Made by a program: the position numbers and the translations under genes. A stretch of 30,398 nt of DNA from a virus: positions 1-30,398 of the IMG/VR virus record IMGVR_UViG_3300028454_000075. The stretch is one strand, 5' to 3'. A model generated the notes under the pieces. The model was not told where the DNA came from. It saw nothing but the letters and a program-made list of their open reading frames with translations, and searched no databases. Shown here in pieces: positions 142 through 22,723 of the stretch (the first letter of the stretch is position 1; each line of letters starts with the position of its first letter).

Positions 142-703
142 TATTACAAGTCAGCTCACAATGAACTACTTGGACCGAAAGCTTGAGCAGATGGTGGTAG
201 ATACTCCACCAAGCACGAAAGCAGGAGTGTTTGCAGCAGTATCAGCAATAGAGAAGAATGCAACAGCTCCTTATCAGGTGATAGAGGTCACTGCCCCCCC
301 AGTTGCGACGTCGCAAATCAGTGAAGATCCCGCTGGATTAGATTTCAGCGACGAAGAAAGTCAGATGCTTCTGAAGTTAGCAATGGCAGAAGCAGAAGAC
401 CAAGGGGTAATCGGTAAGGCTTTGGTCATGAGGGTAGTTAAGAACCGAGTAGATTCAGAAGCGTTCCCAAACAGCATTGAGGATGTCATTTTCGATTCTA
501 AGCAATTCAGTCCCGTCTGGGATGGTCGATATGACGAGGCGGTTCCCGATGCAGAATGCTATGAAGCTCTTGAGTGGGTTCTGAACTACTGGGATGGCTC
601 AGCAGGAGCTCTCTACTTCGAAGCGGATTGGAACGAGAACACCTGGCACAAGGACAACCTCACAGAGCTGTTCCAATATGACAACTTAATATTTTACAAA
701 TAG
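71..703 (+). CDS. Membrane-anchored SleB-like cell wall hydrolase (Hydrolase_2 family)
   Basis: RBS GAGGGAG lies upstream of the ATG. The N-terminal hydrophobic segment YVAAPIAAGLIVGGI looks like a membrane anchor. The C-terminal region GKALVMRVVKNRVDSEAFPNSIEDVIFDSKQFSPVWDGRY...ALYF resembles the SleB/CwlJ-type hydrolase domain. Confidence 0.7.
   Translation: MKRRTKKLIRYVAAPIAAGLIVGGITSQLTMNYLDRKLEQMVVDTPPSTKAGVFAAVSAIEKNATAPYQVIEVTAPPVATSQISEDPAGLDFSDEESQMLLKLAMAEAEDQGVIGKALVMRVVKNRVDSEAFPNSIEDVIFDSKQFSPVWDGRYDEAVPDAECYEALEWVLNYWDGSAGALYFEADWNENTWHKDNLTELFQYDNLIFYK
303..316. repeat. 14-bp palindrome TTGCGACGTCGCAA, copy 1
   Basis: Inside the SleB-like gene, translated V-A-T-S-Q. Flank: CCAGTTGCGACGTCGCAA. 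Confidence 0.95.
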
Positions 704-931
704 GGAGATGAAAAGAATGAAATTGGGAGAAACATCTTGCCAGTCGGCACTAATTTCAATCGATAAAAAAGAGCAAAGAAAAAGACCACTGCGGTAACAG
801 TGGCCAAGCGTTTCACGGCTTTAATAACTTAAAAACATTATACCATGGAACGCTAACAAACGCAACAAAATCAAGGTGTGAGGCACCTTTAAGTAACACT
901 ATAAACATATTAAAGTTAGGACATTTACTCC

Positions 932-1717
932 ATGGCATATATACAAGACGAATATATTTTCCCTAACTCGATTGAAGTAGAAATCAAATGGGCTGGTAAT
1001 TATGGAGCTAAAGGTGAGAGAAGAGCTCCAAGGGAGAAGGCAACACCACAGCAGATTGAAAAACAAAATCAGTGGAAGAAAGAAAACGAAGTAAGAAGGT
1101 TGCTGAAGCTTAATTTCAACCTTGGAGATTTTTGGATCACTTTAACCTATCCACAAGGAACTAGAAAAGAGATTAGGGAAGTGAAAAAAGATATCGCAAA
1201 ACTGAATAGATTTTTGAGAAGCAAATATAAAAAGCTTGATATTCCATTCAAGTGGATAAGAAGAGTGGAAATTGGTTCACTTGGAGGAATACATGTACAC
1301 ATGATAGTCAATCAGGTAAGAGGCGAGCCGATTGATATGCTCATTCAAGAAAGATGGCATCAGCTGACAGGCGGCAGAGCTCACTACGAAAGATACCAGG
1401 GCGATGAAGAGTCAGCTAGGAAAGTGGGAGATTATTTAGTAAAGCCTCTGACAGAGCAGCAAGAAAAGATACTTGAAGATAGAGGCTGGGATAAATCAGA
1501 ACTGGTTGGATATTCAACCTCTCGTAACCTGATCAGGCCAGAACCGGTCCGAAAGGAATACAAGCGACGAACGATGCAAAGAGTAATTGAAACAGGAGAG
1601 CCGCAAGCTAGAGAAGGTTACTACATCGACAAGAATAGCATTGTATTTGGCGTGAATAAGTTCACTGGCCTAAGCTACCTCTATTACACAGAAGTGAGAG
1701 GAGACACAGAGCCATGA
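932..1717 (+). CDS. HUH-superfamily rolling-circle replication initiator-like protein (Rep)
   Basis: Three ordered motifs are visible: FWITLTY (motif I, uuTLT), GIHVHMIVNQ (motif II, HUH) and VGDYLVKP (motif III, YxxK). The RBS is weak. Confidence 0.6.
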   Translation: MAYIQDEYIFPNSIEVEIKWAGNYGAKGERRAPREKATPQQIEKQNQWKKENEVRRLLKLNFNLGDFWITLTYPQGTRKEIREVKKDIAKLNRFLRSKYKKLDIPFKWIRRVEIGSLGGIHVHMIVNQVRGEPIDMLIQERWHQLTGGRAHYERYQGDEESARKVGDYLVKPLTEQQEKILEDRGWDKSELVGYSTSRNLIRPEPVRKEYKRRTMQRVIETGEPQAREGYYIDKNSIVFGVNKFTGLSYLYYTEVRGDTEP

Positions 1718-2136
1718 TGGAGGCAAATATCTACATTGCATCGAGCATCAAGAGTAACAAGCCAAAAGAGGGATATATAGGCTACGTGCTCCAAGCTGGT
1801 GACACAGATGCAACGAAAACAGACTTCAAGAAGATTGAAGCCACAAGCAATCAATCCTTAGTAATTTGTTTGAAAGAGGCTTTAGCCCCGATAAAGTCTT
1901 CGTGCAGCAGGATAATAATTCACACGGATTCAACATACGTGAATTTAATGCTTGCTAAATCGTGGAAAAATCAAGGAGAAAAGCTTCTGAAAACTGCCAA
2001 AGGAAAAGATATCCAGTTTGCAGCAGAGTGGAAAGAGATATACGAGAAGCTGCAAGGCAAGGATGTAACTGTTATATGCAACCAACCTAACAAGTTTAAG
2101 AGCTGGTTGCAGCAGGAGGTAGAGAGAAGGGGTTAA
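1714..2136 (+). CDS. RNase H-like fold protein, possibly with a degenerate active site
   Basis: The start overlaps the upstream stop (ATGA). SNQSLVICLKEAL and IIIHTDSTYV resemble the RNase HI helix and DSxY motifs. The first Asp (IYIASS) and the Glu position appear substituted. Confidence 0.4.
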   Translation: MMEANIYIASSIKSNKPKEGYIGYVLQAGDTDATKTDFKKIEATSNQSLVICLKEALAPIKSSCSRIIIHTDSTYVNLMLAKSWKNQGEKLLKTAKGKDIQFAAEWKEIYEKLQGKDVTVICNQPNKFKSWLQQEVERRG

Positions 2137-2138
2137 AC

Positions 2139-2384
2139 ATGGATTCAAAATCAAGGTATCTGAACCTAGAAGAATCTTGTAGACAGTATGTACCAGGGTT
2201 AGGCCATCACTGCAAAGAAAGCTTATATCACCCAGAAGAGAACTTCGTGAAGATTAAGCAGGGCGAAACAATCATAAGGACCATCAAGGAAGAGGACGTT
2301 GACGTCCTGTGGCACGCAGCAAGGATGGCACTTGAATCATTTGTTTTTAGTTACATGGAGCAAAAGGAGGCAAAACATGTTTGA
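2139..2384 (+). CDS. Hypothetical protein
   Basis: An 81-codon ORF tightly packed in the + strand operon. No motif recognised. Confidence 0.45.
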   Translation: MDSKSRYLNLEESCRQYVPGLGHHCKESLYHPEENFVKIKQGETIIRTIKEEDVDVLWHAARMALESFVFSYMEQKEAKHV

Positions 2385-2862
2385 ACAGTTTGGGAATTTC
2401 GACAGCGCTCAGGAGTTAAACGAGTCAGCTAATGGCTTAAGACGAGAGCAAGACTACGAATCAATCAAAAAGCTAGCCGAAGAGAACGGCATCGAAGAGG
2501 AAATCGCAGAGACATTCATTGACGGAGATGTGCTTTATATTTGCGACGTCGCAACTGCCGCAATTGGCAAGCTGGAAGTGGAAAAGAAAGCACTTGATTG
2601 TGCTGAAATCATGGAAGACTGGGTAAGCTACATCGAGACAGAATGCTTTGAAAATGAGCAGATGGCTATTCAGGTACGCAAGAGCGACAAAAGCCTTGCT
2701 GATTGCATAGCAAAGCTCCTTACATGGGGCTTCAAGCATCAGCACGAGATTAGCAAAGACATCATGAAGGCTGCGAACGTGAATGCTGGCAGAGTAACGC
2801 TTGGCATTCCTGGTATGGGAACAGCAAAGCAGATCATCAGAGAGTACTATCTCGGAAAGTAG
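2377..2862 (+). CDS. PcfK-like protein (family that includes AcrIIA9-type Cas9 inhibitors)
   Basis: The preferred start is ATG 2377 (MFEQFGNF), 7 nt after AAGGAGG, rather than track start 2299. The pattern FxxxxSAQELNExAxGLxxExDxESIKKLAEENGIEEE...AAIGKLEVE and its position just upstream of a PcfJ-like gene match the PcfK/PcfJ pairing of Gram-positive mobile elements. Confidence 0.5.
   Translation: MFEQFGNFDSAQELNESANGLRREQDYESIKKLAEENGIEEEIAETFIDGDVLYICDVATAAIGKLEVEKKALDCAEIMEDWVSYIETECFENEQMAIQVRKSDKSLADCIAKLLTWGFKHQHEISKDIMKAANVNAGRVTLGIPGMGTAKQIIREYYLGK
2541..2554. repeat. 14-bp palindrome TTGCGACGTCGCAA, copy 2
   Basis: Inside the PcfK-like gene, translated C-D-V-A. Confidence 0.95.
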
Positions 2863-2870
2863 GTGCCGAG

Positions 2871-4850
2871 ATGAAAAAGAAAGCGATTAAGGAGATACCG
2901 TTTAAGAGACCCAAGAGATTAAAGAACGGGCTCCAAGCAGAGGCTCAGTCAATCATCATTGATGGAGTATCGCATCTGTTTTTGGACCAGTGGGAAGACA
3001 AGAAACCAAGTTGGCGTTATATCCTCACCAAAAAAGAGCATGGTCGTTACTGGGTAGCAAGCGATGAATGGGACGGAGCAAAGCTCAACGGACAGTTCGC
3101 TTGGTTCTACGACTTCGGAATGGCAAAGGATGTTGACGAGATTGCAGCAGAATGGGCCAAAGAAAACGGATATTACGAAAAAGACTTCAAAGAATTGGCT
3201 AGAGAGGTTGAGACAGAGCAGCTCAGAACGGCGCAGGTCAACAATGAACTCAGACGAAGATTTAAATTGCAACAGCGTGCAGCTGATCTACAAGAGCTTC
3301 CTGAAGACTGGGAAGAATATATCAACAATGTGCTCTCGGACCATAAGCTCTATTATCACCGACATGGCAGATTCACTACTTACTGGTGTTCACATTGCGG
3401 TACAGAGTACACAGTGGCCAACAAGCAACTAGAGACTTACGAAGGACAGTTTGAGTACTACGAGCCAGCTCCTAGCGACGGAGAAGAAAGAGAGTGCCTT
3501 CACTGCAAACAGACAGCAGTATGCAAGCCAAGAGGCAGAGAGAAGAACGGCTCAAGCATAACTAAGTATATATACCTGGCACAGACAACCAAAAGCGGAG
3601 GCTTTGTTACTAGATACTTCCAAGCAACAAAGAAATTCATGCCAGGAGCAACAGAGAAAGTTGATTGGATTGAAGCTTCTAGGACATACATCAGAGATGG
3701 AAAGAGCCAAAGAGATTTTCAGAAGTATGATTGCTATCTAGGCGAAAGATTCTGGGATGATTGCAATTTGGCAGGATTGTCCAACATTAGAATGTATCAA
3801 GGCGTTATTCATCCAGCGACATGGGATGCGGTAGCTGATAGCTATCTGAAGTACGTTCCTGTGAGAGACATATTAGACCTGGATTCAAGACTGAACTTTG
3901 CAGAGTTCACGCTTATAGCTCTAAAGTGGCCTCAGCTGGAAATGCTTATGAAGTTAGGCTTTGAATGGGCGGTACAAACCATTTTGCAGAATCAATGGAC
4001 AACACGATTTGATGTCAACGCAAAAAAGCCTTGGGAGTTCTTCAGAATCAAAAAAGACAGAATGGCAGAGCTTGAATGCACGCCAGAAGCTCTTCAGGTT
4101 TTGCAATTAGAAAATAAGCTCAATGCACACTGGAACGACGACGAGCTCCAAGTAATAGGTCAATTCAACGAAGAGGACGTAAAGACAATACTCAAATACA
4201 TGTCAGCTGAGAAGATGATTAATCGAGTTTGTGAGTATTGCGGATTCACCAAAGAGAGCCTTCGAACAGTATTCGAAAGAGAGAAGCCGAGACGAAAGGC
4301 GACGCTTTATGCAGATTATCTTCACATGAAGGATGCAGCAGGCTTTGATATGACCAATTCAGTGTATTTGCACCCTAGAAACCTTGATAGAGCTCACGCA
4401 GAGCTTGTAGAGAGAAGAGAACAGATTGAAAACGAGCAGTTCCTCAAGAAGAAGGAAGAACAGTTCAAGAATATCCCTAAACGCTACAGAAGTGCTAACA
4501 GGCATTTCAAGTACGAAAGCGGAGAACTATTCATAAGACCAGCGAGAACAGCGACAGAGATAATCCTAGAAGGTCGAATTCAGCATCACTGTGTAGGCGG
4601 TGACAATTACCTGGATAAGCACAACAGAGGCAAGACTTACATCTGTTTCTTGAGATTCAAGGAAGACAAGAAGACGCCATACTACACCGTAGAGCTCGAC
4701 TGGGAATACAACGTTTTACAATTCTACGCTGCTCACGATAAACAGCCTCAGAAGGCTGAAATCGAAGCGTGGTTGAATACATACAAAGAGACTATGCTAG
4801 CCAAGTTGCAGCAGGATAGCATGGGCACACAAGAAGCAAAGGTAAGTTAG
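2871..4850 (+). CDS. PcfJ-like domain protein (large, function unknown)
   Basis: The C-terminal segment EIILEGRIQHHCVGGDNYLDKHNRGKTYICFLRFKEDKKTPYYTVEL...LQFYAAHDKQP resembles the PcfJ-like domain. Cys clusters CSHCG...CLHCK occur in the N-terminal half. Confidence 0.55.
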   Translation: MKKKAIKEIPFKRPKRLKNGLQAEAQSIIIDGVSHLFLDQWEDKKPSWRYILTKKEHGRYWVASDEWDGAKLNGQFAWFYDFGMAKDVDEIAAEWAKENGYYEKDFKELAREVETEQLRTAQVNNELRRRFKLQQRAADLQELPEDWEEYINNVLSDHKLYYHRHGRFTTYWCSHCGTEYTVANKQLETYEGQFEYYEPAPSDGEERECLHCKQTAVCKPRGREKNGSSITKYIYLAQTTKSGGFVTRYFQATKKFMPGATEKVDWIEASRTYIRDGKSQRDFQKYDCYLGERFWDDCNLAGLSNIRMYQGVIHPATWDAVADSYLKYVPVRDILDLDSRLNFAEFTLIALKWPQLEMLMKLGFEWAVQTILQNQWTTRFDVNAKKPWEFFRIKKDRMAELECTPEALQVLQLENKLNAHWNDDELQVIGQFNEEDVKTILKYMSAEKMINRVCEYCGFTKESLRTVFEREKPRRKATLYADYLHMKDAAGFDMTNSVYLHPRNLDRAHAELVERREQIENEQFLKKKEEQFKNIPKRYRSANRHFKYESGELFIRPARTATEIILEGRIQHHCVGGDNYLDKHNRGKTYICFLRFKEDKKTPYYTVELDWEYNVLQFYAAHDKQPQKAEIEAWLNTYKETMLAKLQQDSMGTQEAKVS

Positions 4851-4858
4851 GAGGAAAC

Positions 4859-6319
4859 ATGGGAGATTACTACCAAATGACAATCAGCGATTGGTTGGCA
4901 TCAAAAACAGAAGAAATTAGGCAGGAGCTAGGCAAGACAGCTCAGAGCTTTGTAGCTATCGGCTACAAGCTCAAAGAGGTCAGAGATTCGGGAAACCTAG
5001 CAGAAGGCGAAACAATTGCAGACTACGCACAAAGAGAGTTCGGATTGTCAGCCTCAACAACATCAAGATTCATTGCCATTAACGAAAAGTTTGGCGATGG
5101 ATTAGAGCTTAAGAGCGAATACTTGAAATTCGGCTCAGGTAAGCTCCAGGAGATGCTGGCACTCTCAGATGCAGATTGCGAACTCATTAATCACAATCAC
5201 ACAGTTAGCCAGATCAGAGAGGTCAAGAGATTTGAAGCTGAAAAGCACGATGATGTACCAAGCGAGCCAGTGCAGCAGCATGGAGCATTCGAGAAATGCA
5301 TCATTGACTACTTCAAGGACAAAAAGAAGCTTCTTACAGAGATTTGTGAGGCTGAATACCTCGAAACAGACGACTATAAGAGAGTGGCAGACCTCATAAG
5401 CCCAAACGGAAGCGCAACCCACAAAAAGGGCATCGTGCTTATGTTCATGTATCAGTTTGATGAAGGTATCAAATACAAGATATTCGGAGAACAGTCAGCA
5501 AGACAGATGTCATACATCGAATTTATTAACACAATCCGCGATATTTACTCTTGCGAAGAGGACGTAAATCCACACGAGGCGTTCTACGGAGTAGAAAAAG
5601 AGCCTGAGACCGTGGAAAAATCAACCAATATTCCAGTTGCGACGTCGCAAGTCGAGGAGGTAAAGAAAATTGAGAACACTGGTAATCAATTGCAACAGTC
5701 TGAGGAAGTACAAAAAGAGACTAATAAATCGCAAGAACTTGAAGCCGATTCACAAGAAGATGCGAATAGCTCTCGTGATGAAGCAAACGGACTACACGAG
5801 GATGATATCGCTTCGGATGGCTTGGGAGAAGATAGAACAAGCTATGAAGAGACTAGCGGAGAGCTTGTCAACGATTGTGGAGAAGATACAACCGGAACTG
5901 GAAAAGGCACTGGAAGCGGAGATGAACCACAAGGACCTGAGAGCGAAAGCGAAGTATTCGAGGAAAGCGAGAAGACAACTTCCACCATGGGAGAGATAAA
6001 CGAGGAGGCAGAGGATGAAACTGATAATGGTATTGCTGGAGAGGATGATTATTCAGACAAAGGTGAGACTACTATCGAAGTAAAGACATGGGCTGGGGAC
6101 ACCATAATAGTCGAAAACCACGAGGCAACACCCGTTGAAATTGAGTTAGCAGAGTGCATCAATCTGTTAGATGGCTGGAGAGCAGAGCTGTGTAAGCCAG
6201 AACTTACAAGCCAGGGCGTAAGAGAGCTTAAAGACAACATGGTTGTATTAATCTCACAAGCTTCAGTCAGACTTGCATCAGCCCTCTGGGAACAGGAAAC
6301 AAAAGAGGAGGACGAATAA
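4859..6319 (+). CDS. Hypothetical protein with an N-terminal putative HTH region and a long acidic low-complexity segment
   Basis: RBS AGGAGG. The N-terminus (AIGYKLKEVRD...ADYAQREFGLSASTTSRFIAINEKFG) looks like a DNA-binding domain of conjugative-element proteins (DUF3102-like). Roughly residues 255-400 are D/E/S/G-rich. The gene contains palindrome copy 3. Confidence 0.5.
   Translation: MGDYYQMTISDWLASKTEEIRQELGKTAQSFVAIGYKLKEVRDSGNLAEGETIADYAQREFGLSASTTSRFIAINEKFGDGLELKSEYLKFGSGKLQEMLALSDADCELINHNHTVSQIREVKRFEAEKHDDVPSEPVQQHGAFEKCIIDYFKDKKKLLTEICEAEYLETDDYKRVADLISPNGSATHKKGIVLMFMYQFDEGIKYKIFGEQSARQMSYIEFINTIRDIYSCEEDVNPHEAFYGVEKEPETVEKSTNIPVATSQVEEVKKIENTGNQLQQSEEVQKETNKSQELEADSQEDANSSRDEANGLHEDDIASDGLGEDRTSYEETSGELVNDCGEDTTGTGKGTGSGDEPQGPESESEVFEESEKTTSTMGEINEEAEDETDNGIAGEDDYSDKGETTIEVKTWAGDTIIVENHEATPVEIELAECINLLDGWRAELCKPELTSQGVRELKDNMVVLISQASVRLASALWEQETKEEDE
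5637..5650. repeat. 14-bp palindrome TTGCGACGTCGCAA, copy 3
   Basis: Inside the acidic protein gene, translated V-A-T-S-Q. Flank: CCAGTTGCGACGTCGCAA. Confidence 0.95.
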
Positions 6320-6423
6320 TGGATGAAGAATTGATTGAAGATAACGACTGTGAACATTGTGAATGCTATGTGATATGTCCAGTGGACTACGGAGAAAAAT
6401 GTATCAAGGAGGGAGAAGAATGA
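6319..6423 (+). CDS. Small Cys-rich protein (34 aa), not in the ORF track
   Basis: Sequence MDEELIEDNDCEHCECYVICPVDYGEKCIKEGEE. The ATG overlaps the upstream TAA (TAATG) and the TGA overlaps the next ATG (ATGA), which suggests translational coupling. Confidence 0.35.
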   Translation: MDEELIEDNDCEHCECYVICPVDYGEKCIKEGEE

Positions 6424-6740
6424 GAGTTTACATCAGCGGAGCAATAACTAACAACCCAGAGTATGTCGAGCAATTCGATGCAGCAGAAAAGGCAGTAGTT
6501 GCGGAAGGACACGAGGTAGTTAATCCAGCAAAGATTAATATGCCTCTTCCAGAGTCAACAACTCATGAGGAGTTCATGCATGTATCATTTGCACTTATGG
6601 ATTTATGCGACACGATATACATGCTTAAGAACTGAACCAACAGCAAGGGCGCACACATGGAGCTTGAATATGCTTTGCGTCACAGAATGCCAATATTTTT
6701 TGAAGGAGGTAGAGTAAATGGCACAAGAAATACCAAGTAG
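6420..6740 (+). pseudogene. DUF4406 / nucleoside 2-deoxyribosyltransferase-like gene interrupted by an in-frame TGA at 6633..6635
   Basis: It starts MRVYISGAITNNPEYVEQFDAAEKAVVAEGHEVVNPA...LCDTIYMLKN, then TGA. The same frame continues TNSKGAHMELEYALRHRMPIFFEGG to TAG at 6738..6740. The stop sits where the family motif GW..S.GA..E has Trp. Confidence 0.6.
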
Positions 6741-7113: not shown

Positions 7114-7512
7114 ATGAGCAAATCAATCATGCACCAGAAGGATGGAACCTGTTACCTTTGCATGATGCTCAACGGTGACTATGATGACCACAAAGTGACA
7201 GAGGAGCACCACGCGGTGTTCGGAGTACAAAACAGAACCAAAGCAGAACACTGGGGATTAAAAGTGTACCTCTGTCCATGCCATCATAGAACGGGTAAAG
7301 AGGCAGTGCATAAGAATTACAAGATTGCAAGGTTCCTACAAGAAAAAGCACAACAAGCCTTCGAAAAATTACATCCAGAGCTTAGCTGGATAGAGATATT
7401 TGGGAGAAATTACATACAAACCGAGCAAAAAGCGGAAAAAGCTCGGAGTGACGATACAAGCGGATTCATACCACTAAAGGAGGAAAGTGAAGATGAAAAA
7501 ATTATTTATTAG
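7114..7512 (+). CDS. Putative zinc-binding protein (CxxC...HH...CPCHH), function uncertain
   Basis: RBS GGAGG. The pattern GTCYLC...EEHHAVFG..NR...E.WGLKVYLCPCHHRTGKEAVH recurs in small Firmicutes phage proteins. A nuclease or NinG-like assignment is not established. Confidence 0.45.
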   Translation: MSKSIMHQKDGTCYLCMMLNGDYDDHKVTEEHHAVFGVQNRTKAEHWGLKVYLCPCHHRTGKEAVHKNYKIARFLQEKAQQAFEKLHPELSWIEIFGRNYIQTEQKAEKARSDDTSGFIPLKEESEDEKIIY

Positions 7513-7876
7513 CTGTCCAATGAGAGGCAGAAAAGAGGAAGACATCAAGAAATCGATGGAAAAGATGCACAACATTGCAGAAGCAACTTTGGGAGAAAAA
7601 CTTGAAGTTATTCCAAGCTTTATTGAACATCAGCCACCTGAAAATGTCGAGAAGGCAATATGGTACTTAGGAGAGTCAATCAAGAAACTCGCAGAGGCTG
7701 ATGTAGTTATCTGCGTTAGCGAATCATGGAACTGGCCAGGATGCAAAATCGAGAGAGATGTCGCTTCAAACTATGGAATACCTCTAATTGAAACGGACGT
7801 TATGCATATTGCTCCTGATGCAATTGCAGCCATTAGAGATATTGGAAGAGCGGTTGACTGTGCACCAAACGTATAA
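7493..7876 (+). CDS. Second DUF4406 / deoxyribosyltransferase-like protein
   Basis: ATG 7493 is preferred because it lies 9 nt after AGGAGG, against 3 nt for track GTG 7487. FISCPMRG...LAEADVVICVSESWNWPGCKIERDVASNYGIPLIE parallels the 6420..6740 gene, including the W..G...E...A motif. Confidence 0.5.
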   Translation: MKKLFISCPMRGRKEEDIKKSMEKMHNIAEATLGEKLEVIPSFIEHQPPENVEKAIWYLGESIKKLAEADVVICVSESWNWPGCKIERDVASNYGIPLIETDVMHIAPDAIAAIRDIGRAVDCAPNV

Positions 7877-9316: not shown

Positions 9317-9402
9317 AGGAGGAGCTATGGAGAAAGCAAGAGAACCAACAAAGTGAAGGTCTATTGCAGCAGGATAATAATAGTTTTATACCACACACAT
9401 GC

Positions 9403-9425
9403 GGCGGAGACCTTTTCACTCCGCC
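9403..9425 (+). promoter_or_regulatory. Stem-loop GGCGGAG-N9-CTCCGCC in the intergenic region upstream of the late activator gene
   Basis: A perfect 7-bp GC-rich stem read directly. No U-tract follows, so it is not a canonical terminator. Confidence 0.35.
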
Positions 9426-9449
9426 GACTTTAAGGGAGAAAGAAGAAAC

Positions 9450-9854
9450 ATGACTAAAGCAGAAGTACATGACAAGTTAACGGCACCAAGAAGGACTAAG
9501 AGAAAGATAGCGGTCACGAAAGCTCAGATGGAGCGTCTAAGAGTCATGATGTTACCAGGGGCGATTCGATATGACAAAGACAGCATCCAAACATCACCAC
9601 AAGACCCCATGCTGGTCTTTGCTGAGAAGATGGATGAATTAACAAGACAGGCGAAAGATTTAGAACTACTCTACATGAACGAGTACAAAGAGGTTGAAGC
9701 AATGGCTGAGACATTGGACGATGCTCATAGAGATGTGCTCAAGCTGAGATACTTGGCAGAGTATAAGCCTGTAGAGATAGCTATAGAACTAAACTATTCG
9801 GAGTCAACGGTTTACAAACTCAAGAGGGAAGCAATTAAACTTTTGGAAGGATGA
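9450..9854 (+). CDS. RinA/ArpU-like late gene transcriptional activator (sigma-70 region 4-type HTH)
   Basis: ATG 9450 (MTKAEVHD) follows GGGAGAAAGAAG. The C-terminal DVLKLRYLAEYKPVEIAIELNYSESTVYKLKREAIKLL is a sigma r4 / RinA-type HTH. The gene sits immediately upstream of the packaging module. Confidence 0.65.
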   Translation: MTKAEVHDKLTAPRRTKRKIAVTKAQMERLRVMMLPGAIRYDKDSIQTSPQDPMLVFAEKMDELTRQAKDLELLYMNEYKEVEAMAETLDDAHRDVLKLRYLAEYKPVEIAIELNYSESTVYKLKREAIKLLEG

Positions 9855-15091: not shown

Positions 15092-15103
15092 GAGGAAAAG
15101 AAA

Positions 15104-15940: not shown

Positions 15941-15950
15941 GAGGTACAGC

Positions 15951-16274: not shown

Positions 16275-16286
16275 AGGAGCGTTAAT

Positions 16287-16652
16287 ATGGCAGCATACGC
16301 AACAGTTCAAGATGTTCAGGCTAGAATGTCTAAGCAGCTAACAGAATCAGAACAGCAAATTGCTAGCACTCTCTTGGAAGATGCAGCAGTTATGATTGAT
16401 AGCCTCAATGAGTCAGCTAAGGCCGATGCAAAGAAGGTTGTATCGTGTCGTATGGTTGCCAGAGCACTAGGCTTTGACGATGCAAGCATACCTTTGGGCG
16501 CATCTCAAGCTACAATGTCGGCTTTAGGGTATAGCCAAACCTTCACAATGGGTTCTGGTACAGCCGGAGAGCTGTATATATCAAAAACCGAAAAGGGATT
16601 GCTTAAAGCTGGAAATAGAATCGGGTACATCAGCCCATTGGAGGATTTATGA
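16287..16652 (+). CDS. Head-tail connector protein (gp6-like)
   Basis: The N-terminus YATVQDVQARMSKQLTESEQQIASTLLEDAAVMID is typical of gp6-like head-tail connector proteins, and the position fits. Confidence 0.6.
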   Translation: MAAYATVQDVQARMSKQLTESEQQIASTLLEDAAVMIDSLNESAKADAKKVVSCRMVARALGFDDASIPLGASQATMSALGYSQTFTMGSGTAGELYISKTEKGLLKAGNRIGYISPLEDL

Positions 16653-16981
16653 TTAAAGGAGAAACAGTAATCTTAATCGAAAAGACAAAGACGGGCACCA
16701 ATCCTCTAGGCGAGCCAATTGCGACGTCGCAAGAAGAGGAAGTAGAAAATGTGCTTGTTGGTAATCCAAGCACTGAAGCAGCAGTGGAAGATTTGAACCT
16801 ATATGGAAAACATTTGGCTTATGTGCTAGGCATTCCAAAAGGTGATAGTCATAACTGGAAGGATGCAGAGGTTCTCATCAGAGGTGAGAGATTTAGAACA
16901 TACGGATTTCCATTGACACAGACAGAAGAAAACGTACCTGGTCCATGGAATACCCAAGTTAAGGTGGAAGCTTATGAGTAG
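16649..16981 (+). CDS. Head closure / head-tail adaptor protein
   Basis: Assigned by position and size (110 aa). The start overlaps the upstream stop. The gene contains palindrome copy 4. Confidence 0.45.
   Translation: MIKGETVILIEKTKTGTNPLGEPIATSQEEEVENVLVGNPSTEAAVEDLNLYGKHLAYVLGIPKGDSHNWKDAEVLIRGERFRTYGFPLTQTEENVPGPWNTQVKVEAYE
16719..16732. repeat. 14-bp palindrome TTGCGACGTCGCAA, copy 4
   Basis: Inside the head closure gene, translated I-A-T-S-Q. Flank: CCAATTGCGACGTCGCAA. Confidence 0.95.
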
Positions 16982-17219
16982 TGCTAAAGTCACATTGAAC
17001 TACAGAGAGGTAGGAGCCTTACTTAAATCCAGCGAAGTAATGGCAGAGCTGAATGCTCAAGCTGACGCCATAATTGGCAGATGTGCAGGCAACTATGAAA
17101 AGTCTGAGTATGTAGGAAAAACGAGAGCTAATGTAGCAATCACAACTACAGACGAGGAGACGTTCCATAGCAACCTGAAAAGCAACGAGCTTTTGAAAGC
17201 TCTTGGAGGTGGCAGATGA
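16974..17219 (+). CDS. Head-tail joining module protein (hypothetical)
   Basis: An 81-aa ORF overlapping both of its neighbours in the connector gene block. Confidence 0.4.
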   Translation: MSSAKVTLNYREVGALLKSSEVMAELNAQADAIIGRCAGNYEKSEYVGKTRANVAITTTDEETFHSNLKSNELLKALGGGR

Positions 17220-17572
17220 TTGAAATGACTGTAATAGAGTATTTGAGAGAAGCTCTAGAAACACCGGTCGAAGCTATCAAGCCAACCGACCAGGGTATAA
17301 CCGAGTTTGTTTTAGTTGAGAAGACAGGCTCATCAAGGGAGAATTTTTTAAATAGAGCAACATTTGCGATTCAAAGCTATTCCGACACACTTTATGGGGC
17401 TATGAGCCTCAACGAAGCTGTCAAGGAAGCGATGCTGGGAGACGGTACAAACACTTTTGGCATTGCATATAGTTGCGACGTCGCAAAATGCTCACTCAAC
17501 AGTGACTATAATTACACAGATACAACAACCAAACGCTACCGATATCAGGCAGTGTTTGACCTAGTATTCTAA
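17216..17572 (+). CDS. Tail completion / tail terminator-like protein
   Basis: The last small gene before the major tail protein. It contains palindrome copy 5. Confidence 0.4.
   Translation: MIEMTVIEYLREALETPVEAIKPTDQGITEFVLVEKTGSSRENFLNRATFAIQSYSDTLYGAMSLNEAVKEAMLGDGTNTFGIAYSCDVAKCSLNSDYNYTDTTTKRYRYQAVFDLVF
17473..17486. repeat. 14-bp palindrome TTGCGACGTCGCAA, copy 5
   Basis: Inside the tail completion gene, translated C-D-V-A. Confidence 0.95.
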
Positions 17573-17584
17573 GGAGGTAGAAAA

Positions 17585-18139: not shown

Positions 18140-18151
18140 TAGGAGGTTAAT

Positions 18152-18879: not shown

Positions 18880-18880
18880 C

Positions 18881-20761
18881 ATGGCTTCAGAAATCGCTAA
18901 GGCGTATGTCCAGTTAGTTCCATCTGCAAAAGGTTTTGGTAGTGGAATCAAATCTGCAATCGGTGGCGATGTATCAACAGCGGGAACTGACGCAGGAGCA
19001 AGTTTCGGCGGTAGCATGATTTCTAAGCTTAAAGGTGTGCTCGTTGCAGCAGGAATCGGAACGATTGTCAAAGAGACTATCGAAGCTGGTGCAAATCTGC
19101 AACAGTCGTTTGGCGGCTTAGATACGCTATACGAAGATGCAAGCGAAGCTGCTAAGCAATACGCAAGAGAAGCTGCTTCGGCAGGAATCTCAATGAATGA
19201 TTATGCTGAACAGGCAGTATCATTCGGAGCAGCATTGAAATCAGCTTTTGGAGGAGATACGCAAGCGGCAGCAGAAGCCGCAAACCAAGCTATCTTAGAT
19301 ATGGCTGATAACTCAGCAAAAATGGGAACGTCAATTGATTCAATTCAAAACGCATACCAGGGATTTGCTAAAGGCAACTTCACGATGCTTGATAATCTTA
19401 AGCTTGGCTACGGCGGCACAAAAACTGAGATGGAGCGATTACTGAAAGATGCAGAAAAGCTCCATGAGGAAGCCACTGGCGAAGTCACACATTATGATAT
19501 CAACAACCTTGGAGATGTCTATAGTGCAATCCATGATGTTCAGACTGAATTAGGTTTGACGGGAGTTGCAGCAGACGAGGCTAAGACAACATTCACCGGT
19601 TCAATGCAAGCAATGAAAGCCACAGTCACTAATCTGATGGCAGATATAACAACAGGAGCTAGTCCAGAGGTTATATTGGAGGATTTGGCAAGCCTGTTCG
19701 AATCAGTCAAGACTTTTGTTTTTGATAACTTAGGCTCAATGGTTATGGATATCATTAATGCCTTGCCAACACTGCTTAGCGGAATAGCTGATTTTTTATC
19801 AACGGAAATCCCGACAATGACCGAAGAGCTATTAACGCAAATCGGTTCGCTGGCGGAAAAGATTCCTGAGATTATCGCAGAGCTTCTACCTAAGTTGCTA
19901 TCTGTTTTTGATGGACTAAGAGGAAGCACTAACACGTTGATTGATATCGGATTAGAGATGATCCTAAATTTGGTACAAGGATTAATGCAAGCCCTTCCTT
20001 CGTTAATCGAAGCAATTCCTCAGATAATTATGGGATTAGTGCAGACGTTTGTTGAAAACTTCCCTAAGATTATCGAGACGGGCATTCAATTGACATCAAG
20101 TATACAAATCGGGCTCCTCAATGCTCTTCCATCCTTGCTAGAAGGAATGGGACAGATTCTTGTAATGCTGGTCGATTTGATTATTCATACAGACTGGATT
20201 GGCATAGGCAAGGATATAATCGTTGCACTTGCAAACGGAGTAAAAGCATTACAGGAAAATATTCCAAAAGTGCTTAAAAGCATCATGAATACAGCGATAA
20301 CTACAATCAAGAATATTAACTGGAAAGCTGTAGGACATGCAATCATTAACGGTATTGTTAACGGATTGAAGGCTTTAGGACACCTTATCAAAGACTATTT
20401 ATTGGAGCTTGCATCATCAGCTTTGGATTCAATCAAAGAGTTCTTCGGTATCAAATCACCATCGAGAGTCATGCGAGACCAAGTTGGTAAGATGATTCCT
20501 GCTGGTATGGCAATTGGTATCAAGATGAATTCAGACGATGCAATCGAAGCGGCCAAAGATATGTCGGCAGAAGTTCTTGAAGAGGCGAAGGTAGACATTG
20601 ACGATTTTGGACCTGTAAAGGACGAGCCAACACCAGCACCTACAACAAACTTCACACAGAACCTATATGTAACAACAACAGACAATAGCCCAGATGAGAT
20701 TGCCAGAAAGTCAAGGCAAGAATCTCGCTGGGGACTCATGACGGGAGGCGAACTTGGATAA
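18881..20761 (+). CDS. Tape measure protein
   Basis: ATG 18881 follows AAGGAGG. It is the largest tail-module gene (626 aa), Ala/Gly/Ile/Leu-rich and helical, and sits after the chaperone pair. Confidence 0.8.
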   Translation: MASEIAKAYVQLVPSAKGFGSGIKSAIGGDVSTAGTDAGASFGGSMISKLKGVLVAAGIGTIVKETIEAGANLQQSFGGLDTLYEDASEAAKQYAREAASAGISMNDYAEQAVSFGAALKSAFGGDTQAAAEAANQAILDMADNSAKMGTSIDSIQNAYQGFAKGNFTMLDNLKLGYGGTKTEMERLLKDAEKLHEEATGEVTHYDINNLGDVYSAIHDVQTELGLTGVAADEAKTTFTGSMQAMKATVTNLMADITTGASPEVILEDLASLFESVKTFVFDNLGSMVMDIINALPTLLSGIADFLSTEIPTMTEELLTQIGSLAEKIPEIIAELLPKLLSVFDGLRGSTNTLIDIGLEMILNLVQGLMQALPSLIEAIPQIIMGLVQTFVENFPKIIETGIQLTSSIQIGLLNALPSLLEGMGQILVMLVDLIIHTDWIGIGKDIIVALANGVKALQENIPKVLKSIMNTAITTIKNINWKAVGHAIINGIVNGLKALGHLIKDYLLELASSALDSIKEFFGIKSPSRVMRDQVGKMIPAGMAIGIKMNSDDAIEAAKDMSAEVLEEAKVDIDDFGPVKDEPTPAPTTNFTQNLYVTTTDNSPDEIARKSRQESRWGLMTGGELG

Positions 20762-21629
20762 TTTAGCAATTAAGATTGTAAGACAATCTGATGGCAAGAA
20801 ATTTGAAATAAGCAACTCCCATGATTGGGTAGTTGTAAAAGATGGATTAGAGGGATTTGGAGAGATTTCCAACTCCCTCAGTTTTACAGATAATGCTTAT
20901 TCAGATGGCGGAATCATCACAGATGAACATGTCACAAAAAAAGACAGAACCATCAAAGCAGGATACCGCCACAACAACATAGCTCTAGCAAAGCAAAATG
21001 CTGATTCATTCTTCAGCATCAAAGACACCTACAAGGTCATTGTCACACACGGCCAAAAGAATGTGTTTGCGATGGGAAAGATTGAGAAGTATATCTGCAA
21101 GCCAGTCCACCTGGATAACGGCAAGCTAGAGCTTGCAGTAACATTCCTATTTGCTAATCCTTTCTGGAAGTCAGTTGATGACTTTGGAAAGAATATAGCA
21201 GCTCTTAGCGGAATGATAGCATTTCCGTATTTGTGCTCTGTCTCAGGCGGAGTGATCGGAACGACTGGAGGCATATTCAATTATGCCGAAAAGACCGTTC
21301 TATCAAATAACGGAGATGTAGCCACAAAATGCAAGGTTGTGATTGTAGCGGATGGAGAGGTATTCAATCCTAAAATCATCATCAATGGTGAGTATGTTAG
21401 AGTATTGGATACGCTTGAAGCTGATGACAGAATTGAGATGGACTTTGAAGCGCAGCCACCAACCGTCAAAAAGAACGGAGTTAATTGGGTAGGTAAATGC
21501 GACAGAACGAGTGCTTTTCAGTCAATTATCCTTGCAAGAGGCGACAATGAGATTGAGTATGATGCAGACAACGGCAGCTCACACATGAACGTGACTGTCT
21601 ACTACAACAAGCAATACGAGGTAGTCTAA
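20754..21629 (+). CDS. Distal tail protein (Dit, siphovirus tail family)
   Basis: TTG start 5 nt after GGGAGG, overlapping the tape measure stop. It lies immediately after the tape measure gene. Confidence 0.55.
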   Translation: MDNLAIKIVRQSDGKKFEISNSHDWVVVKDGLEGFGEISNSLSFTDNAYSDGGIITDEHVTKKDRTIKAGYRHNNIALAKQNADSFFSIKDTYKVIVTHGQKNVFAMGKIEKYICKPVHLDNGKLELAVTFLFANPFWKSVDDFGKNIAALSGMIAFPYLCSVSGGVIGTTGGIFNYAEKTVLSNNGDVATKCKVVIVADGEVFNPKIIINGEYVRVLDTLEADDRIEMDFEAQPPTVKKNGVNWVGKCDRTSAFQSIILARGDNEIEYDADNGSSHMNVTVYYNKQYEVV

Positions 21630-22723
21630 TGAGCAAAAGCAAAATTGAAATAATGGGCCTAGACTCAGAATTCAACATCGTGACTTTGTTAGAGTATTCG
21701 AATTTGCAGTGGCGTAGGAAGTATTACGAAGCTGGCACATTCTCAGTCGTACTACCAGCGAGCCAATACGACAATAGAATCAAGTATATCTATTCGAAGG
21801 ATAGGCCAGAGGTAGGAGAAGTTACTCAGATTAACTATTATTTCAAGACCGACGGTCCTGTATTTGCTCTCTCAGGTTACTTCCTGGAGAAGCAATTAGA
21901 TCGAAGGATTGTGTACCCTTATGGCACTGGCAATATCACAAACGCACCAAATTGGATTAACCAAACGGGAGCGGCAGAGGATGTTGCCACTGCCTTTTTT
22001 GATGCATTCAAAGATGTAGAATACACAGTTGATGGAGTAGCTAAGGAAAGTCTTCTAGGAATTGCGACGTCGCAATCACAAGGACGAGGACATTACTCAG
22101 AACACGAGCGAGGCGAGGAATACCTAGGCTCTAAAATATATACAATTTTAAAGCCATCGCAGATGAGCTACAGAATTGTATATGACCATATCAATGCAGC
22201 AGTATCATTCGAATGCTGGAAAGGACACGATAGAACGCAGGACAACCAAGACGGAGAGAATCCAGTTATATTCTCAACGGCCTTCGGCAATCTTATTAAT
22301 CCTGACATTGTGATAAGCACAAGCGATTATAAGAATTGCTATATCGTGAAACATAGCTACAGTCAAAACAATGCTGATGTTGTTAGGCTGATAGCCAATG
22401 AGGAAAGAGCCTCAGAAGATACAGCTGATAGATTTATAAAAGTACAAGCATCAATCAACAAAGAGGACTACTCAACAGAAGCTGAGTACATCCAAGGATT
22501 GATGAATTTAGGACACGAAGAGCTTATCAAGAATAAGCCAAAGATGTCTTTTGATTTTGATGCTCTTGAGGGCAGCTACGAATACCTAACAGATTTTGAC
22601 TTAGGTGATAGATGCTCTTTAGAGGTGCCTGAAATTGGATTATCCGAAGAAGCAGTTCTTATTGGCTGCAACGAAGTAATCAAAAGTGGCACATGGAATC
22701 TAACAATGGAATTTGAAGTATAA
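21629..22723 (+). CDS. Siphovirus Gp37-like tail-tip protein
   Basis: The N-terminus IEIMGLDSEFNIVTLLEYSNLQWRRKYYEAGTFSVVLP resembles ReqiPepy6 Gp37-like proteins. It follows Dit and contains palindrome copy 6. Confidence 0.5.
   Translation: MSKSKIEIMGLDSEFNIVTLLEYSNLQWRRKYYEAGTFSVVLPASQYDNRIKYIYSKDRPEVGEVTQINYYFKTDGPVFALSGYFLEKQLDRRIVYPYGTGNITNAPNWINQTGAAEDVATAFFDAFKDVEYTVDGVAKESLLGIATSQSQGRGHYSEHERGEEYLGSKIYTILKPSQMSYRIVYDHINAAVSFECWKGHDRTQDNQDGENPVIFSTAFGNLINPDIVISTSDYKNCYIVKHSYSQNNADVVRLIANEERASEDTADRFIKVQASINKEDYSTEAEYIQGLMNLGHEELIKNKPKMSFDFDALEGSYEYLTDFDLGDRCSLEVPEIGLSEEAVLIGCNEVIKSGTWNLTMEFEV
22062..22075. repeat. 14-bp palindrome TTGCGACGTCGCAA, copy 6 (16-bp palindrome ATTGCGACGTCGCAAT at 22061..22076)
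   Basis: Inside the Gp37-like gene, translated I-A-T-S-Q. Confidence 0.95.

What the first reader, a model, noticed from the sequence alone, without database searches (positions are those of the whole stretch)
303..22075. Perfect 14-bp palindrome TTGCGACGTCGCAA occurs six times, always embedded in-frame in unrelated genes
The copies are at 303, 2541, 5637, 16719, 17473 and 22062. Under uniform base composition a specific 14-mer is expected about 1e-4 times in 30 kb, so six exact copies are far beyond chance.

All six lie inside coding sequences of functionally unrelated proteins: the SleB-like hydrolase, PcfK-like protein, acidic protein, head closure protein, tail completion protein and Gp37-like tail protein. 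None is intergenic. Four are read as (V/I)-A-T-S-Q, three of them preceded by Pro and followed by acidic residues, with the shared flank CCA(G/A)TTGCGACGTCGCAA. Two are read as C-D-V-A. The third phase (L-R-R-R) is never used.

The motif resembles parS/NBS-type 14-16-bp palindromes with a central ACGT, and the highly iterated palindromes of cyanobacteria (HIP1, GCGATCGC). Several roles are possible:
- Binding sites for a dimeric phage or host DNA-binding protein, for example in partition, condensation, silencing or packaging.
- A methylation or restriction-related motif (it contains the AatII site GACGTC).
- Hairpin-forming signals on single-stranded rolling-circle intermediates.
- Footprints of a tiny in-frame-inserting palindromic element.

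No annotated feature explains it.
Basis: seen in the sequence. Interest (0 to 1): 0.75.

Follow-up and report, generated by a model that had tools for sequence, protein, structure and literature searches.

The report
Phage protein's palindromic binding sites
The six identical 14-base palindromes are real and are most likely the DNA docking sites of one uncharacterised phage protein (gene 4859-6319), which in hundreds of related gut-bacterial prophages carries a copy of its own matching palindrome inside its own gene.

Summary
TTGCGACGTCGCAA occurs six times exactly, with no 1-2-mismatch copies (shuffles give 0.07). These are six of the seven perfect palindromes of 12 bp or more in the window.

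The motif is tied to one gene family, here called X (window 4859-6319). X has a DUF3102-like helical N-domain with an HTH signature, an acidic disordered middle and a C-terminal helical pair.
- About 85% of ~140 distinct X genes, found by protein homology in IMG/VR contigs and Lachnospiraceae prophages, carry a perfect palindrome of the form TTGC-N6-GCAA inside the gene. It usually lies just after the N-domain.
- Variants change symmetrically (GACGTC, GCCGGC, ACCGGT, GATATC).
- Site type tracks the N-domain clade.
- Extra copies elsewhere in a phage are of that phage's own type.
- ATSQ in X genes was encoded as GCGACGTCGCAA in 66 of 71 cases, against 0.35% expected. The constraint is therefore on DNA, not on protein.

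New sites arise by point mutation, some at the cost of amino-acid changes, not by insertion.

Best reading: these are cognate sites of a dimeric DNA-binding protein, organised like KorB-OB or ParB-parS, or like lambda ori within gene O. X belongs to neither family. What the bound protein does (regulation, architecture or replication) is inferred, not shown. Binding itself is untested.

The parts
303..316 (.). Site 1, TTGCGACGTCGCAA. It lies in the linker of the SleB-like hydrolase gene (71-703) and is read PPVATSQ at aa 78.
   Evidence: The surrounding stretch does not align with relative L121, which lacks the site. In Butyrivibrio-type relatives the corresponding site lies in intergenic DNA near the start of the early operon, for example after the cro-like gene in L208.
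2541..2554 (.). Site 2, in the PcfK-like gene (2377-2862), read ICDVATAAIGK.
   Evidence: Homologues read LCD(D/E)M(S/T)AAIG at this position. CDVA together with the site occurs in window/L121, L182 and L267, which are 48-93% identical, so the site appears to have been created more than once at an existing TGCGAC half-site.
5637..5650 (.). Site 3, the in-gene copy inside X. It is read IPVATSQVEE at aa 260, where the predicted disordered acidic region begins.
   Evidence: An equivalent in-gene palindrome is present in about 85% of X genes.
16719..16732 (.). Site 4, in gene 16649-16981, read GEPIATSQEEE.
   Evidence: The site is conserved exactly in relative L063, although the surrounding 134 bp are only 78% identical.
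17473..17486 (.). Site 5, in gene 17216-17572, read YSCDVAKCS.
   Evidence: L063 has TTGCAACGTCGCAA here, one base different (D versus N), so the site was gained or lost by point mutation.
22062..22075 (.). Site 6, in the Sipho_Gp37-like tail gene (21629-22723), read LLGIATSQSQ. Here the palindrome extends to 16 bp, ATTGCGACGTCGCAAT.
   Evidence: The site is conserved exactly in L063.
4859..6319 (+). Gene X, 486 aa, the proposed binding protein. Its parts are an N-domain (aa 1-130), an alpha/beta middle domain (143-245), an acidic disordered region (255-417) and a C-terminal pair of long helices (425-485).
   Evidence: Searches give the sequence and the structure model. It matches phrog_15077 only, with no Pfam or NCBIfam hit. 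The family has 1,705 clusters at 50% identity.
4859..5257 (+). N-terminal domain of X. It is all-helical and has a helix-turn-helix signature at aa 53-78 (DYAQREFGLSASTTSRFIAINEKF). A57, G62, S66 and R70 are invariant in the family.
   Evidence: The model has pLDDT 91.7. There is no PDB fold match. The nearest BFVD models are DUF3102 proteins, with E from 2.5e-3 and TM 0.6-0.7. The HTH reading rests on the classical sequence pattern and is an inference.

Best explanation
The 14-bp palindromes are the cognate recognition sites of protein X (4859-6319). X is a member of a large, uncharacterised, DUF3102-like family found in prophages of Lachnospiraceae and other Firmicutes.

**Proposed mechanism**
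- A dimer of X binds each site. Dimerisation is presumably through the C-terminal helices. One N-domain HTH contacts each TTGCGAC half-site.
- One site sits inside the X gene itself, in sequence that encodes a tolerant disordered linker. This keeps the protein and its site genetically linked in mosaic phage genomes. It may also favour binding in cis.
- Further sites are made by point mutation wherever a half-site already exists. They usually fall in the frame that costs the host protein least (xTT GCG ACG TCG CAA = V/I-A-T-S-Q).
- Once bound at dispersed sites, X most likely acts as a regulatory or architectural protein of the phage chromosome, in the manner of KorB-OB or ParB-parS. In relatives these sites lie at the start of the early operon after cro, within the replication module, and next to the capsid genes.
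- This could include roadblock feedback on the early operon that encodes X.
- A DNA-melting initiator role is less likely.

**Status of each step**
- Shown: the linkage of sites to gene X, the DNA-level constraint, the symmetric co-variation with the protein clade, and the origin of sites by point mutation.
- Inferred: that X is the binder, that it binds as a dimer, and what binding does.
For: 1. **Linkage to gene X.** Of 120 IMG/VR loci chosen only because they hold the 14-mer, about 30 encode an X homologue (27-46% identity). In every one the motif lies inside that gene.
2. **Survey by protein homology.** The motif played no part in choosing these loci.
   - 26 of 80 IMG/VR loci hold the exact motif in-gene, and most of the rest hold a symmetric variant in-gene.
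   - 66 prophage loci in Lachnospiraceae genomes show the same.
   - Among distinct N-domains from both sets, 123 of 134 X genes hold a site.
   - 104 of 125 family representatives carry a site-derived peptide, against 0.004 expected per protein.
3. **Constraint on DNA, not protein.**
   - ATSQ is encoded as GCGACGTCGCAA in 66 of 71 cases, and the other 5 are the one-base variant. Codon usage predicts 0.35%.
   - The same DNA is read CDVA in some X genes.
4. **Two-fold symmetry kept through two-sided changes.** This holds even at the four central bases, which would be loop in a hairpin. The variants are GACGTC, GCCGGC, ACCGGT, GATATC and GCATGC.
5. **Specificity.**
   - Copies outside the gene match the in-gene type: A 8/10, B 17/17, C 1/1, D 4/4.
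   - N-domain pairs at least 70% identical share the site type in 99.8% of cases. Pairs 30-50% identical share it in 7.7%.
6. **The site follows X, not its neighbours.** Seven of nine loci without Rep, RNase H, PcfK or PcfJ homologues still have the site in X.
7. **A distant relative.** The DUF3102 gene of Paenibacillus phage Tripp holds the only copy in 50 kb of TTAGCGACGTCGCTAA, which has the same 10-bp core.
8. **Site creation.** The PcfK-gene site was created in separate lineages with D/E-to-V and M-to-A replacements. Site 17473 differs from its L063 counterpart by a single base.
9. **Fold.** The N-domain is confidently folded, with a helix-turn-helix pair and invariant A/G/S/R positions.
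10. **Position in relatives.** Extra sites lie 4 nt after the cro-like stop codon and abut the next RBS, or sit at the junction of the prohead-protease and capsid genes.
Against: - No binding experiment exists.
- No PDB structure or curated family supports a DNA-binding function.
- Co-variation of site type with the X clade is confounded by phylogeny, because whole phage lineages are inherited together.
- About 8-15% of X genes have no such palindrome. One example is Clostridium phage phiCs5676-1.
- Palindromes of 20-30 bp in some relatives are longer than a simple HTH-dimer footprint needs. That leaves room for cruciform or hairpin roles.
- The functional outcome (regulation, architecture or replication) is not resolved by any test here.
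- The host chromosome could not be scanned for the motif.
Confidence: 0.7

Rival explanations
1. **Replication origin inside its initiator gene.** This is the lambda O / SPP1 G38P / replisome-organiser model. X would bind the in-gene palindrome to nucleate replisome assembly or to assist the rolling-circle Rep. The other copies would be secondary or accessory origins.
For: - X always lies in the replication module.
  - In 55-66 of 80 loci it follows RC-Rep, RNase H, PcfK-like and PcfJ-like genes.
  - In L191 it follows a DnaD-like Lin1244_N protein.
  - In Paenibacillus phage Tripp it lies just upstream of DnaC-like, DnaB-like and primase genes.
- The site sits between an N-terminal DNA-binding domain and a C-terminal domain, in an acidic linker. 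Lambda ori in gene O is arranged this way (established knowledge).
- Some X genes carry 2-3 copies.
Against: - There is no AT-rich unwinding element within 400 bp either side of the in-gene site in 116 genes. AT content is flat at about 0.50.
- Most genes have a single copy, not an iteron array.
- Six dispersed copies, three of them in late structural genes, are not what an origin needs.
- These phages already encode another initiator: an RC Rep, a Lin1244_N protein, or an annotated 'replication initiation protein'.
- X matches neither Phage_rep_O nor Phage_rep_org_N in Pfam.
Confidence: 0.17
2. **Hairpin or cruciform signals.** The palindromes would act as folded nucleic acid rather than as duplex protein sites. 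Candidate roles are single-strand origins on rolling-circle intermediates, RNase III or attenuator hairpins in mRNA, or cruciforms.
For: - The phage encodes a rolling-circle Rep.
- In relatives the palindrome often extends to 20-30 bp, for example GCTTCCTGTTGCGACGTCGCAACAGGAAGC in L221. That would form a stable hairpin.
- Symmetric changes are also compensatory for a stem.
Against: - In this window only 14 bp are palindromic. The ssDNA hairpin has a 5-bp stem and -4 to -5 kcal/mol, and several sites fold no better than shuffled sequence.
- The four central bases would be loop, yet they stay palindromic in nearly all types.
- No G-T or G-U type one-sided changes were seen.
- The tight link to the X gene and its clade is not explained by this model.
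- Tripp has the site but carries DnaB/DnaC/primase-type replication genes.
Confidence: 0.06
3. **Host-wide oligonucleotide bias or a restriction-modification/methylation motif.** The model here is HIP1. The phage would mirror a hyper-palindrome of its host, or carry target sites of a methyltransferase.
For: - The motif contains GACGTC.
- Exact copies without degenerate ones are typical of enzyme targets.
- The motif is found in more than 120 IMG/VR contigs.
Against: - The copies concentrate in one gene family. 27 of 35 exact copies in 1.34 Mb of related loci lie inside X genes.
- Related prophages of the same bacterial family use different central hexamers, in step with their X clade.
- No methyltransferase was detected among the window proteins scanned.
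- The IMG/VR hit count alone is near the rough chance expectation. That estimate is my own and not a tool result.
Confidence: 0.04
4. **Footprints of a small palindromic mobile element, or a functional ATSQ peptide.** The copies would be insertions, or the selection would act on the peptide.
For: The copies are identical, lie in frame in unrelated genes, and four share the same peptide.
Against: - Orthologue alignments show substitutions, not insertions.
- ATSQ is always encoded by the one palindromic codon set.
- The same DNA is read CDVA elsewhere.
Confidence: 0.02

Closest known systems
KorB-OB of IncP-1 plasmid RK2 (a ParB-family global regulator)
   Same: - A short, perfectly palindromic operator (core TTTAGCGGCTAAA) is repeated at dispersed places on one replicon. 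Some copies are next to promoters and some are distant from them (PMC11790492; the class and number of sites are from my own knowledge).
- The protein has disordered regions and a C-terminal dimerisation domain (PMC5577506).
- It combines regulation with DNA organisation.
   Different: - X has no ParB/CTPase N-domain, and no ParB, KorA or ParA partner was detected.
- X is phage-borne, on an integrating prophage.
- One site lies inside its own coding sequence.
- Sliding or CTP binding could not be tested here.
Spo0J(ParB)-parS of Bacillus subtilis
   Same: - A 16-bp palindrome with a central CG-containing core occurs in several nearly identical copies.
- Most copies lie inside coding sequences, and one lies within the spo0J gene itself (own knowledge: Lin and Grossman 1998).
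   Different: - The protein fold and family differ.
- There is no partner ATPase.
- The replicon is about 30 kb and integrates through a tyrosine integrase, so partition is not obviously needed.
Lambda O-ori, SPP1 G38P-oriL and replisome-organiser genes of Gram-positive phages
   Same: - The cis site is embedded in the gene of the protein that binds it, between the N-terminal DNA-binding part and the C-terminal part.
- The gene sits in the replication module.
- The arrangement keeps specificity pairs linked in mosaic genomes (own knowledge).
   Different: - There is no iteron array and no AT-rich unwinding region.
- There is no similarity to Phage_rep_O or Phage_rep_org_N.
- Further copies lie in late genes.
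- Separate initiator genes are present.
Dispersed centromere sites of linear plasmid-prophage N15 (SopB sites)
   Same: Several identical palindromic sites are scattered over a phage genome, including regions of late genes (own knowledge: Ravin and Lane 1999; Grigoriev and Lobocka 2001).
   Different: N15 is an extrachromosomal prophage with SopA/SopB. The window phage has an integrase and no ParA/SopA.
DUF3102 (PF11300) proteins
   Same: - The N-domain of X resembles predicted DUF3102 structures, with BFVD E from 2.5e-3 and TM 0.6-0.7.
- It is 32.5% identical over 118 aa to Tripp TRIPP_49, which RefSeq annotates as DUF3102.
- That gene also carries a GCGACGTCGC-core palindrome.
   Different: - X does not reach the Pfam threshold. 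No hit was found for the window protein, and one of 51 relatives hit at E = 0.018.
- DUF3102 itself has no known function. Only three papers in the library mention it, and none is functional.

Membership tests
ParB/KorB family | N-terminal ParB/Srx-type CTPase domain (ParBc, GxxRxxA box) | tested here: not met
   No Pfam hit for X or for 51 relatives. No PDB sequence or fold match.
ParB/KorB family | Cognate 13-16-bp palindromic sites repeated on the replicon, some of them intragenic | tested here: met
   Six exact copies in the window. Cognate-type copies occur in relatives.
ParB/KorB family | Partner ParA-type ATPase, or KorA-type co-repressor, encoded nearby | tested here: not met
   No such domain was found in the window proteins scanned or in the precomputed Pfam calls for the same contig. 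Small unannotated ORFs cannot be excluded.
ParB/KorB family | CTP-dependent clamping and sliding or spreading from the site | not testable with these tools
   This needs biochemistry or ChIP-seq.
Lambda O / replisome-organiser initiators | Homology to Phage_rep_O, Phage_rep_org_N or DnaD-like domains | tested here: not met
   No hit. In L191 a separate Lin1244_N protein lies next to X.
Lambda O / replisome-organiser initiators | Origin inside the initiator gene, made of several iterons plus an AT-rich unwinding element | tested here: not met
   The site is inside the gene (met). However, it is usually a single copy, and AT content is flat within 400 bp either side in 116 genes.
Lambda O / replisome-organiser initiators | Replication actually starts at the site | not testable with these tools
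   This needs marker-frequency analysis or 2D gels.
DUF3102 (PF11300) | Score above the Pfam gathering threshold | tested here: not met
   No hit for the window protein. One of 51 relatives hit at E = 0.018.
DUF3102 (PF11300) | Same fold, or detectable sequence similarity to members | tested here: met
   BFVD Foldseek hits to DUF3102 proteins with probability 1.0 and TM 0.6-0.7. tblastn hit to TRIPP_49 at E = 6e-5.
Host-wide hyper-palindrome (HIP1-like) | Over-representation throughout the host chromosome, independent of any one gene | tested here: inconclusive
   Host chromosomes could not be fetched. Indirect evidence argues against it. Copies concentrate in X genes. Site type differs between prophages of related hosts, in step with the X clade.
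Miniature palindromic insertion element | Presence or absence as an insertion relative to orthologues | tested here: not met
   Alignments show point substitutions without any length change.
Single-strand origin / structured hairpin | A stable stem-loop, with compensatory but not necessarily palindromic loop changes | tested here: not met
   Hairpins give -4 to -5 kcal/mol with 5-bp stems. The central four bases stay palindromic across types.

The most novel reading that the evidence does not exclude
X and its palindromes form a previously unrecognised and widespread phage 'self-marking' system. It would have these features:
- A non-ParB DNA-binding family with at least 1,700 clusters.
- Each member carries its own address site inside its coding sequence.
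- Lineages such as this one are under positive selection to seed more sites across the genome, even at the cost of amino-acid changes.
- The bound protein displays a long acidic, DNA-mimic-like tail on phage DNA.

The tail could organise or partition replicating genomes. It could recruit host replication factors. It could shield phage DNA from host nucleases or silencers. The mechanism would have no described counterpart.
Probability: 0.2. Interest if true: 0.85.

Novelty: new variant of a known kind. Interest (0 to 1): 0.62.

Why it matters
- It gives a testable function to a large family of 'hypothetical' proteins: 1,705 clusters at 50% identity, with no Pfam or NCBIfam model. The family is found in prophages of Lachnospiraceae, which are dominant gut and rumen bacteria.
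- It provides a ready set of protein-site specificity pairs (GACGTC, GCCGGC, ACCGGT, GATATC and others). These could be used to dissect how an unstudied fold recognises DNA.
- It shows, at the sequence level, a cis-acting site living inside the disordered linker of the gene for its own binding protein, and new sites being created within unrelated genes at the cost of amino-acid replacements.
- If the function turns out to be regulatory or architectural, it would be a ParB-independent analogue of KorB or parS in integrating phages.

Tried and rejected
- **Similarity to sequenced phages.** Megablast of 24 kb against INPHARED gave no match. Distant blastn gave only two unannotated fragments.
- **Literature.** No paper holds the 14-mer. 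Papers with the 10-mer core are unrelated. DUF3102 appears in 3 papers, none functional. The PcfJ/PcfK search returned noise. A search for a citable source on parS within spo0J found nothing in the library.
- **Protein X.** No Pfam, NCBIfam or PDB sequence hit. Foldseek against the PDB found nothing with either the full-length or the N-domain model.
- **The search for related loci.** The scan of genome contigs with A1 failed for lack of a conserved stretch. It was repeated with the narrower A4.
- **AT-rich unwinding element next to the in-gene site.** None found.
- **Hairpin stability.** Weak.
- **Insertion-element hypothesis.** Rejected by alignments.
- **ATSQ as a protein motif.** Rejected by codon analysis.
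- **Rep, PcfJ or PcfK as the protein linked to the site.** Rejected, because the site persists in X genes that lack those neighbours.
- **Host-chromosome motif frequency.** This could not be computed with the collections at hand.

Full report
**1. The observation**

TTGCGACGTCGCAA occurs exactly six times, at 303, 2541, 5637, 16719, 17473 and 22062. No additional copy appears at one or two mismatches. One hundred dinucleotide-preserving shuffles give a mean of 0.07 matches.

Six of the seven perfect palindromes of 12 bp or more in the window are this motif. All six lie in + strand ORFs.
- Four are read (V/I)ATSQ.
- Two are read CDVA.
- None is read LRRR.

The window is a small temperate siphovirus-like genome. 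It has:
- an integrase and cI/cro-like genes;
- an early module of a SleB-like hydrolase, a rolling-circle Rep, an RNase H, a PcfK-like protein, a PcfJ-like protein and gene 4859-6319;
- a sigma-r4/DUF1492-type regulator;
- structural genes and lysis genes.

It has no close relative among sequenced phages. The same genome was assembled from at least five metagenome samples.

**2. The motif belongs to one gene family**

In these loci the motif is usually the core of a longer palindrome, CWG-TTGCGACGTCGCAA-CWG, with C at +1 in 65% of flanks.

About 30 of the 120 loci encode a homologue of window gene 4859-6319, here called X. The homologues are 27-46% identical. In every one of them the motif lies inside that gene. 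It sits in non-conserved acidic sequence after the conserved N-terminal domain.

I then sampled the family by protein homology, so that the motif played no part in the choice.
- **IMG/VR.** Of 80 loci, 26 hold the exact motif in-gene. Most of the others hold a symmetric variant at the same kind of position.
- **Bacterial genomes.** The 66 prophage loci found are almost all in Lachnospiraceae, including Butyrivibrio (the closest), Roseburia, Acetatifactor, Eisenbergiella, Anaerostipes and Coprococcus. They show the same pattern, with palindromes of up to 30 bp.
- **Both sets together.** Among distinct N-domains, 123 of 134 X genes hold a site.
- **Protein library.** A search of a library of 1.84 billion proteins finds 1,705 clusters of the family. 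Of the 125 nearest full-length representatives, 104 carry a site-derived peptide. The counts are ATSQ 66, APAQ 27, CDVA 8 and APVQ 3, against 0.004 expected per protein.

**3. The constraint is on DNA, it is two-fold symmetric, and it tracks the protein**
- **Codon choice.** Across 139 distinct X genes, ATSQ is encoded as GCGACGTCGCAA 66 times and as the one-base variant GCGACATCGCAA 5 times. It is never encoded otherwise. Codon usage predicts 0.35%.
- **Frame.** The same DNA is read in another frame (CDVA) in some X genes.
- **Site types.** The types seen are TTGCGACGTCGCAA, TTGCGCCGGCGCAA, GTGCGACGTCGCAC, TTGCACCGGTGCAA, TTGCGATATCGCAA, ATGCGCATGCGCAT and ATGCGCCGGCGCAT. Changes occur on both halves together, including the four central bases.
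- **Cognate copies.** Outside the X gene, additional copies are of the same type as the in-gene copy: A 8/10, B 17/17, C 1/1, D 4/4.
- **Clade tracking.** N-domain pairs at least 70% identical share the site type in 99.8% of cases. Pairs 30-50% identical share it in 7.7%.
- **Independence from neighbours.** Seven of nine loci with no Rep, RNase H, PcfK or PcfJ homologue still have the site in X.
- **A distant relative.** Paenibacillus phage Tripp encodes a DUF3102 protein that is 32.5% identical to the N-domain of X. Its gene holds the only copy in 50 kb of TTAGCGACGTCGCTAA, which shares the GCGACGTCGC core.

**4. How the extra copies arise**

Relative L063 is 78-83% identical to the window around these sites.
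- Sites 16719 and 22062 are conserved exactly in L063.
- Site 17473 reads TTGCAACGTCGCAA there, one base different.
- Site 303 lies in a linker that does not align with L121, which lacks the site.

PcfK-like proteins normally read LCD(D/E)M(S/T)AAIG at the position of site 2541. The lineages window/L121, L182 and L267 are only 48-52% identical to one another here. They read CDVA instead, and this completes the palindrome on a pre-existing TGCGAC. The sites are therefore made by substitution, repeatedly, and sometimes with non-conservative amino-acid changes. They are not insertions.

The window has 5 copies outside X in 29 kb. Its type-A relatives have 8 copies outside X in 407 kb. This lineage is therefore unusually rich in sites.

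**5. The protein**

The AlphaFold2 model of X shows four parts:
- a helical N-domain, aa 1-130;
- an alpha/beta middle domain, aa 143-245;
- a disordered acidic region, aa 255-417;
- two long C-terminal helices, aa 425-485.

The in-gene site encodes aa 260-264, at the start of the disordered region.

Modelled alone, the N-domain reaches pLDDT 91.7. Helices 53-61 and 65-78 carry an A-x4-G-L-S-x2-T-x-S-R-F pattern, with A57, G62, S66 and R70 invariant. From the classical HTH signature I read this as a helix-turn-helix. This is an inference.

Database comparisons gave little:
- No PDB fold match was found.
- No Pfam, NCBIfam or PDB sequence match was found.
- The nearest predicted viral structures are DUF3102 proteins. 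That family has no known function.

**6. Where sites sit in relatives**
- In the Butyrivibrio sp. INlla18 prophage (L208), a strong promoter drives a cro-like gene. The site starts 4 nt after the stop codon of that gene and abuts the RBS of the next small HTH gene. That gene opens the operon which encodes X 4.8 kb downstream.
- Other intergenic copies also lie 2-8 nt upstream of an RBS.
- Type-B phages have a conserved second copy at the end of the ClpP-like prohead-protease gene, just upstream of the major capsid gene.
- L063 has a copy upstream of its scaffold and capsid genes.

**7. Interpretation**

The data fit a sequence-specific, two-fold symmetric DNA-binding protein, X, whose sites are scattered on the phage genome. 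One copy is kept inside its own gene.

I cannot show binding, and I cannot decide what binding achieves.

I favour a KorB/ParB-like regulatory or architectural role for three reasons.
- The sites are dispersed.
- They are exact.
- In relatives they occupy the entry to the early operon and the capsid region.

A roadblock at the post-cro site would give negative feedback on the operon that encodes X.

The lambda-O-type origin model remains the main rival. The gene always sits in replication modules, and an in-gene site is classical for initiators. Three points count against it.
- No AT-rich unwinding element is present.
- Single copies are the usual case.
- Copies occur in late genes, and other initiator genes are present.

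The remaining models are contradicted or unsupported (section 4). These are hairpin signals, methylation or host bias, insertion elements and a peptide motif. The host chromosome could not be scanned, so a host-wide component is not formally excluded.

**8. Comparison and novelty**

In organisation this resembles four known systems.
- KorB-OB (PMC11790492, PMC5577506).
- Spo0J-parS, which has a site within spo0J.
- The dispersed centromeres of N15.
- Lambda O-ori.

The last three comparisons rest on my own knowledge.

X fails the defining protein features of the ParB and lambda-O families. It is only a distant, sub-threshold relative of DUF3102. No paper in the library holds the motif. I therefore rate it a new variant of a known kind: a new protein family and site family that use a known logic.

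Noticed in passing
window 23647-26475: A complete diversity-generating retroelement. The variable repeat is at 24945-25057, at the 3' end of tail-fibre-like gene 23647-25077. The template repeat is at 25167-25279. All 15 differences between them fall on template adenines. The reverse transcriptase (RVT_1) is at 25420-26475.
   Followed up: partly
window 6363-6635 and 7487-7876: Two genes resembling nucleoside 2-deoxyribosyltransferase (DUF4406 and phrog_355) lie just downstream of X. They may point to manipulation of the nucleotide pool or to base modification.
   Followed up: no
window 932-6319 and loci L121-L200: The early module of RC-Rep, RNase H, PcfK-like, PcfJ-like and X is conserved. 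Of 80 IMG/VR relatives, 66 have PcfJ, 62 have PcfK, 55 have Rep and 45 have RNase H. None of PcfJ, PcfK or X has a known function.
   Followed up: partly
L221 (X gene, aa ~439) and L225 (X gene): L221 carries a 30-bp perfect palindrome, GCTTCCTGTTGCGACGTCGCAACAGGAAGC. The X gene of L225 carries both a type-A site and a type-D site, GGTTGCACCGGTGCAACC.
   Followed up: no
L274 (Paenibacillus phage Tripp, NC_028930.1) 29640-29655: The only copy of TTAGCGACGTCGCTAA in 50 kb lies inside the DUF3102 gene TRIPP_49. Here it falls within the N-domain coding part (aa 76), directly upstream of the DnaC-like, DnaB-like and primase genes.
   Followed up: partly
L201-L205 versus window 29271-30005: The same phage was assembled from at least five metagenome samples with two alternative immunity alleles. 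One has a 108-aa cI-like and a 64-aa cro-like protein. The other has 128-aa and 72-aa proteins. The rest of the early region is shared.
   Followed up: no
L272 (Clostridium phage phiCs5676-1, OR574845.1) 33637-34887: This is an X homologue in an isolated [Clostridium] scindens phage. It has no TTGC-N6-GCAA palindrome in the gene or anywhere else in the 41-kb genome. It is an exception that could serve as a natural negative control.
   Followed up: partly
window 9399-9854: A sigma-70 region 4 / DUF1492-type protein lies upstream of the terminase region. It is probably the late-gene regulator. None of the six palindromes lies near it.
   Followed up: no
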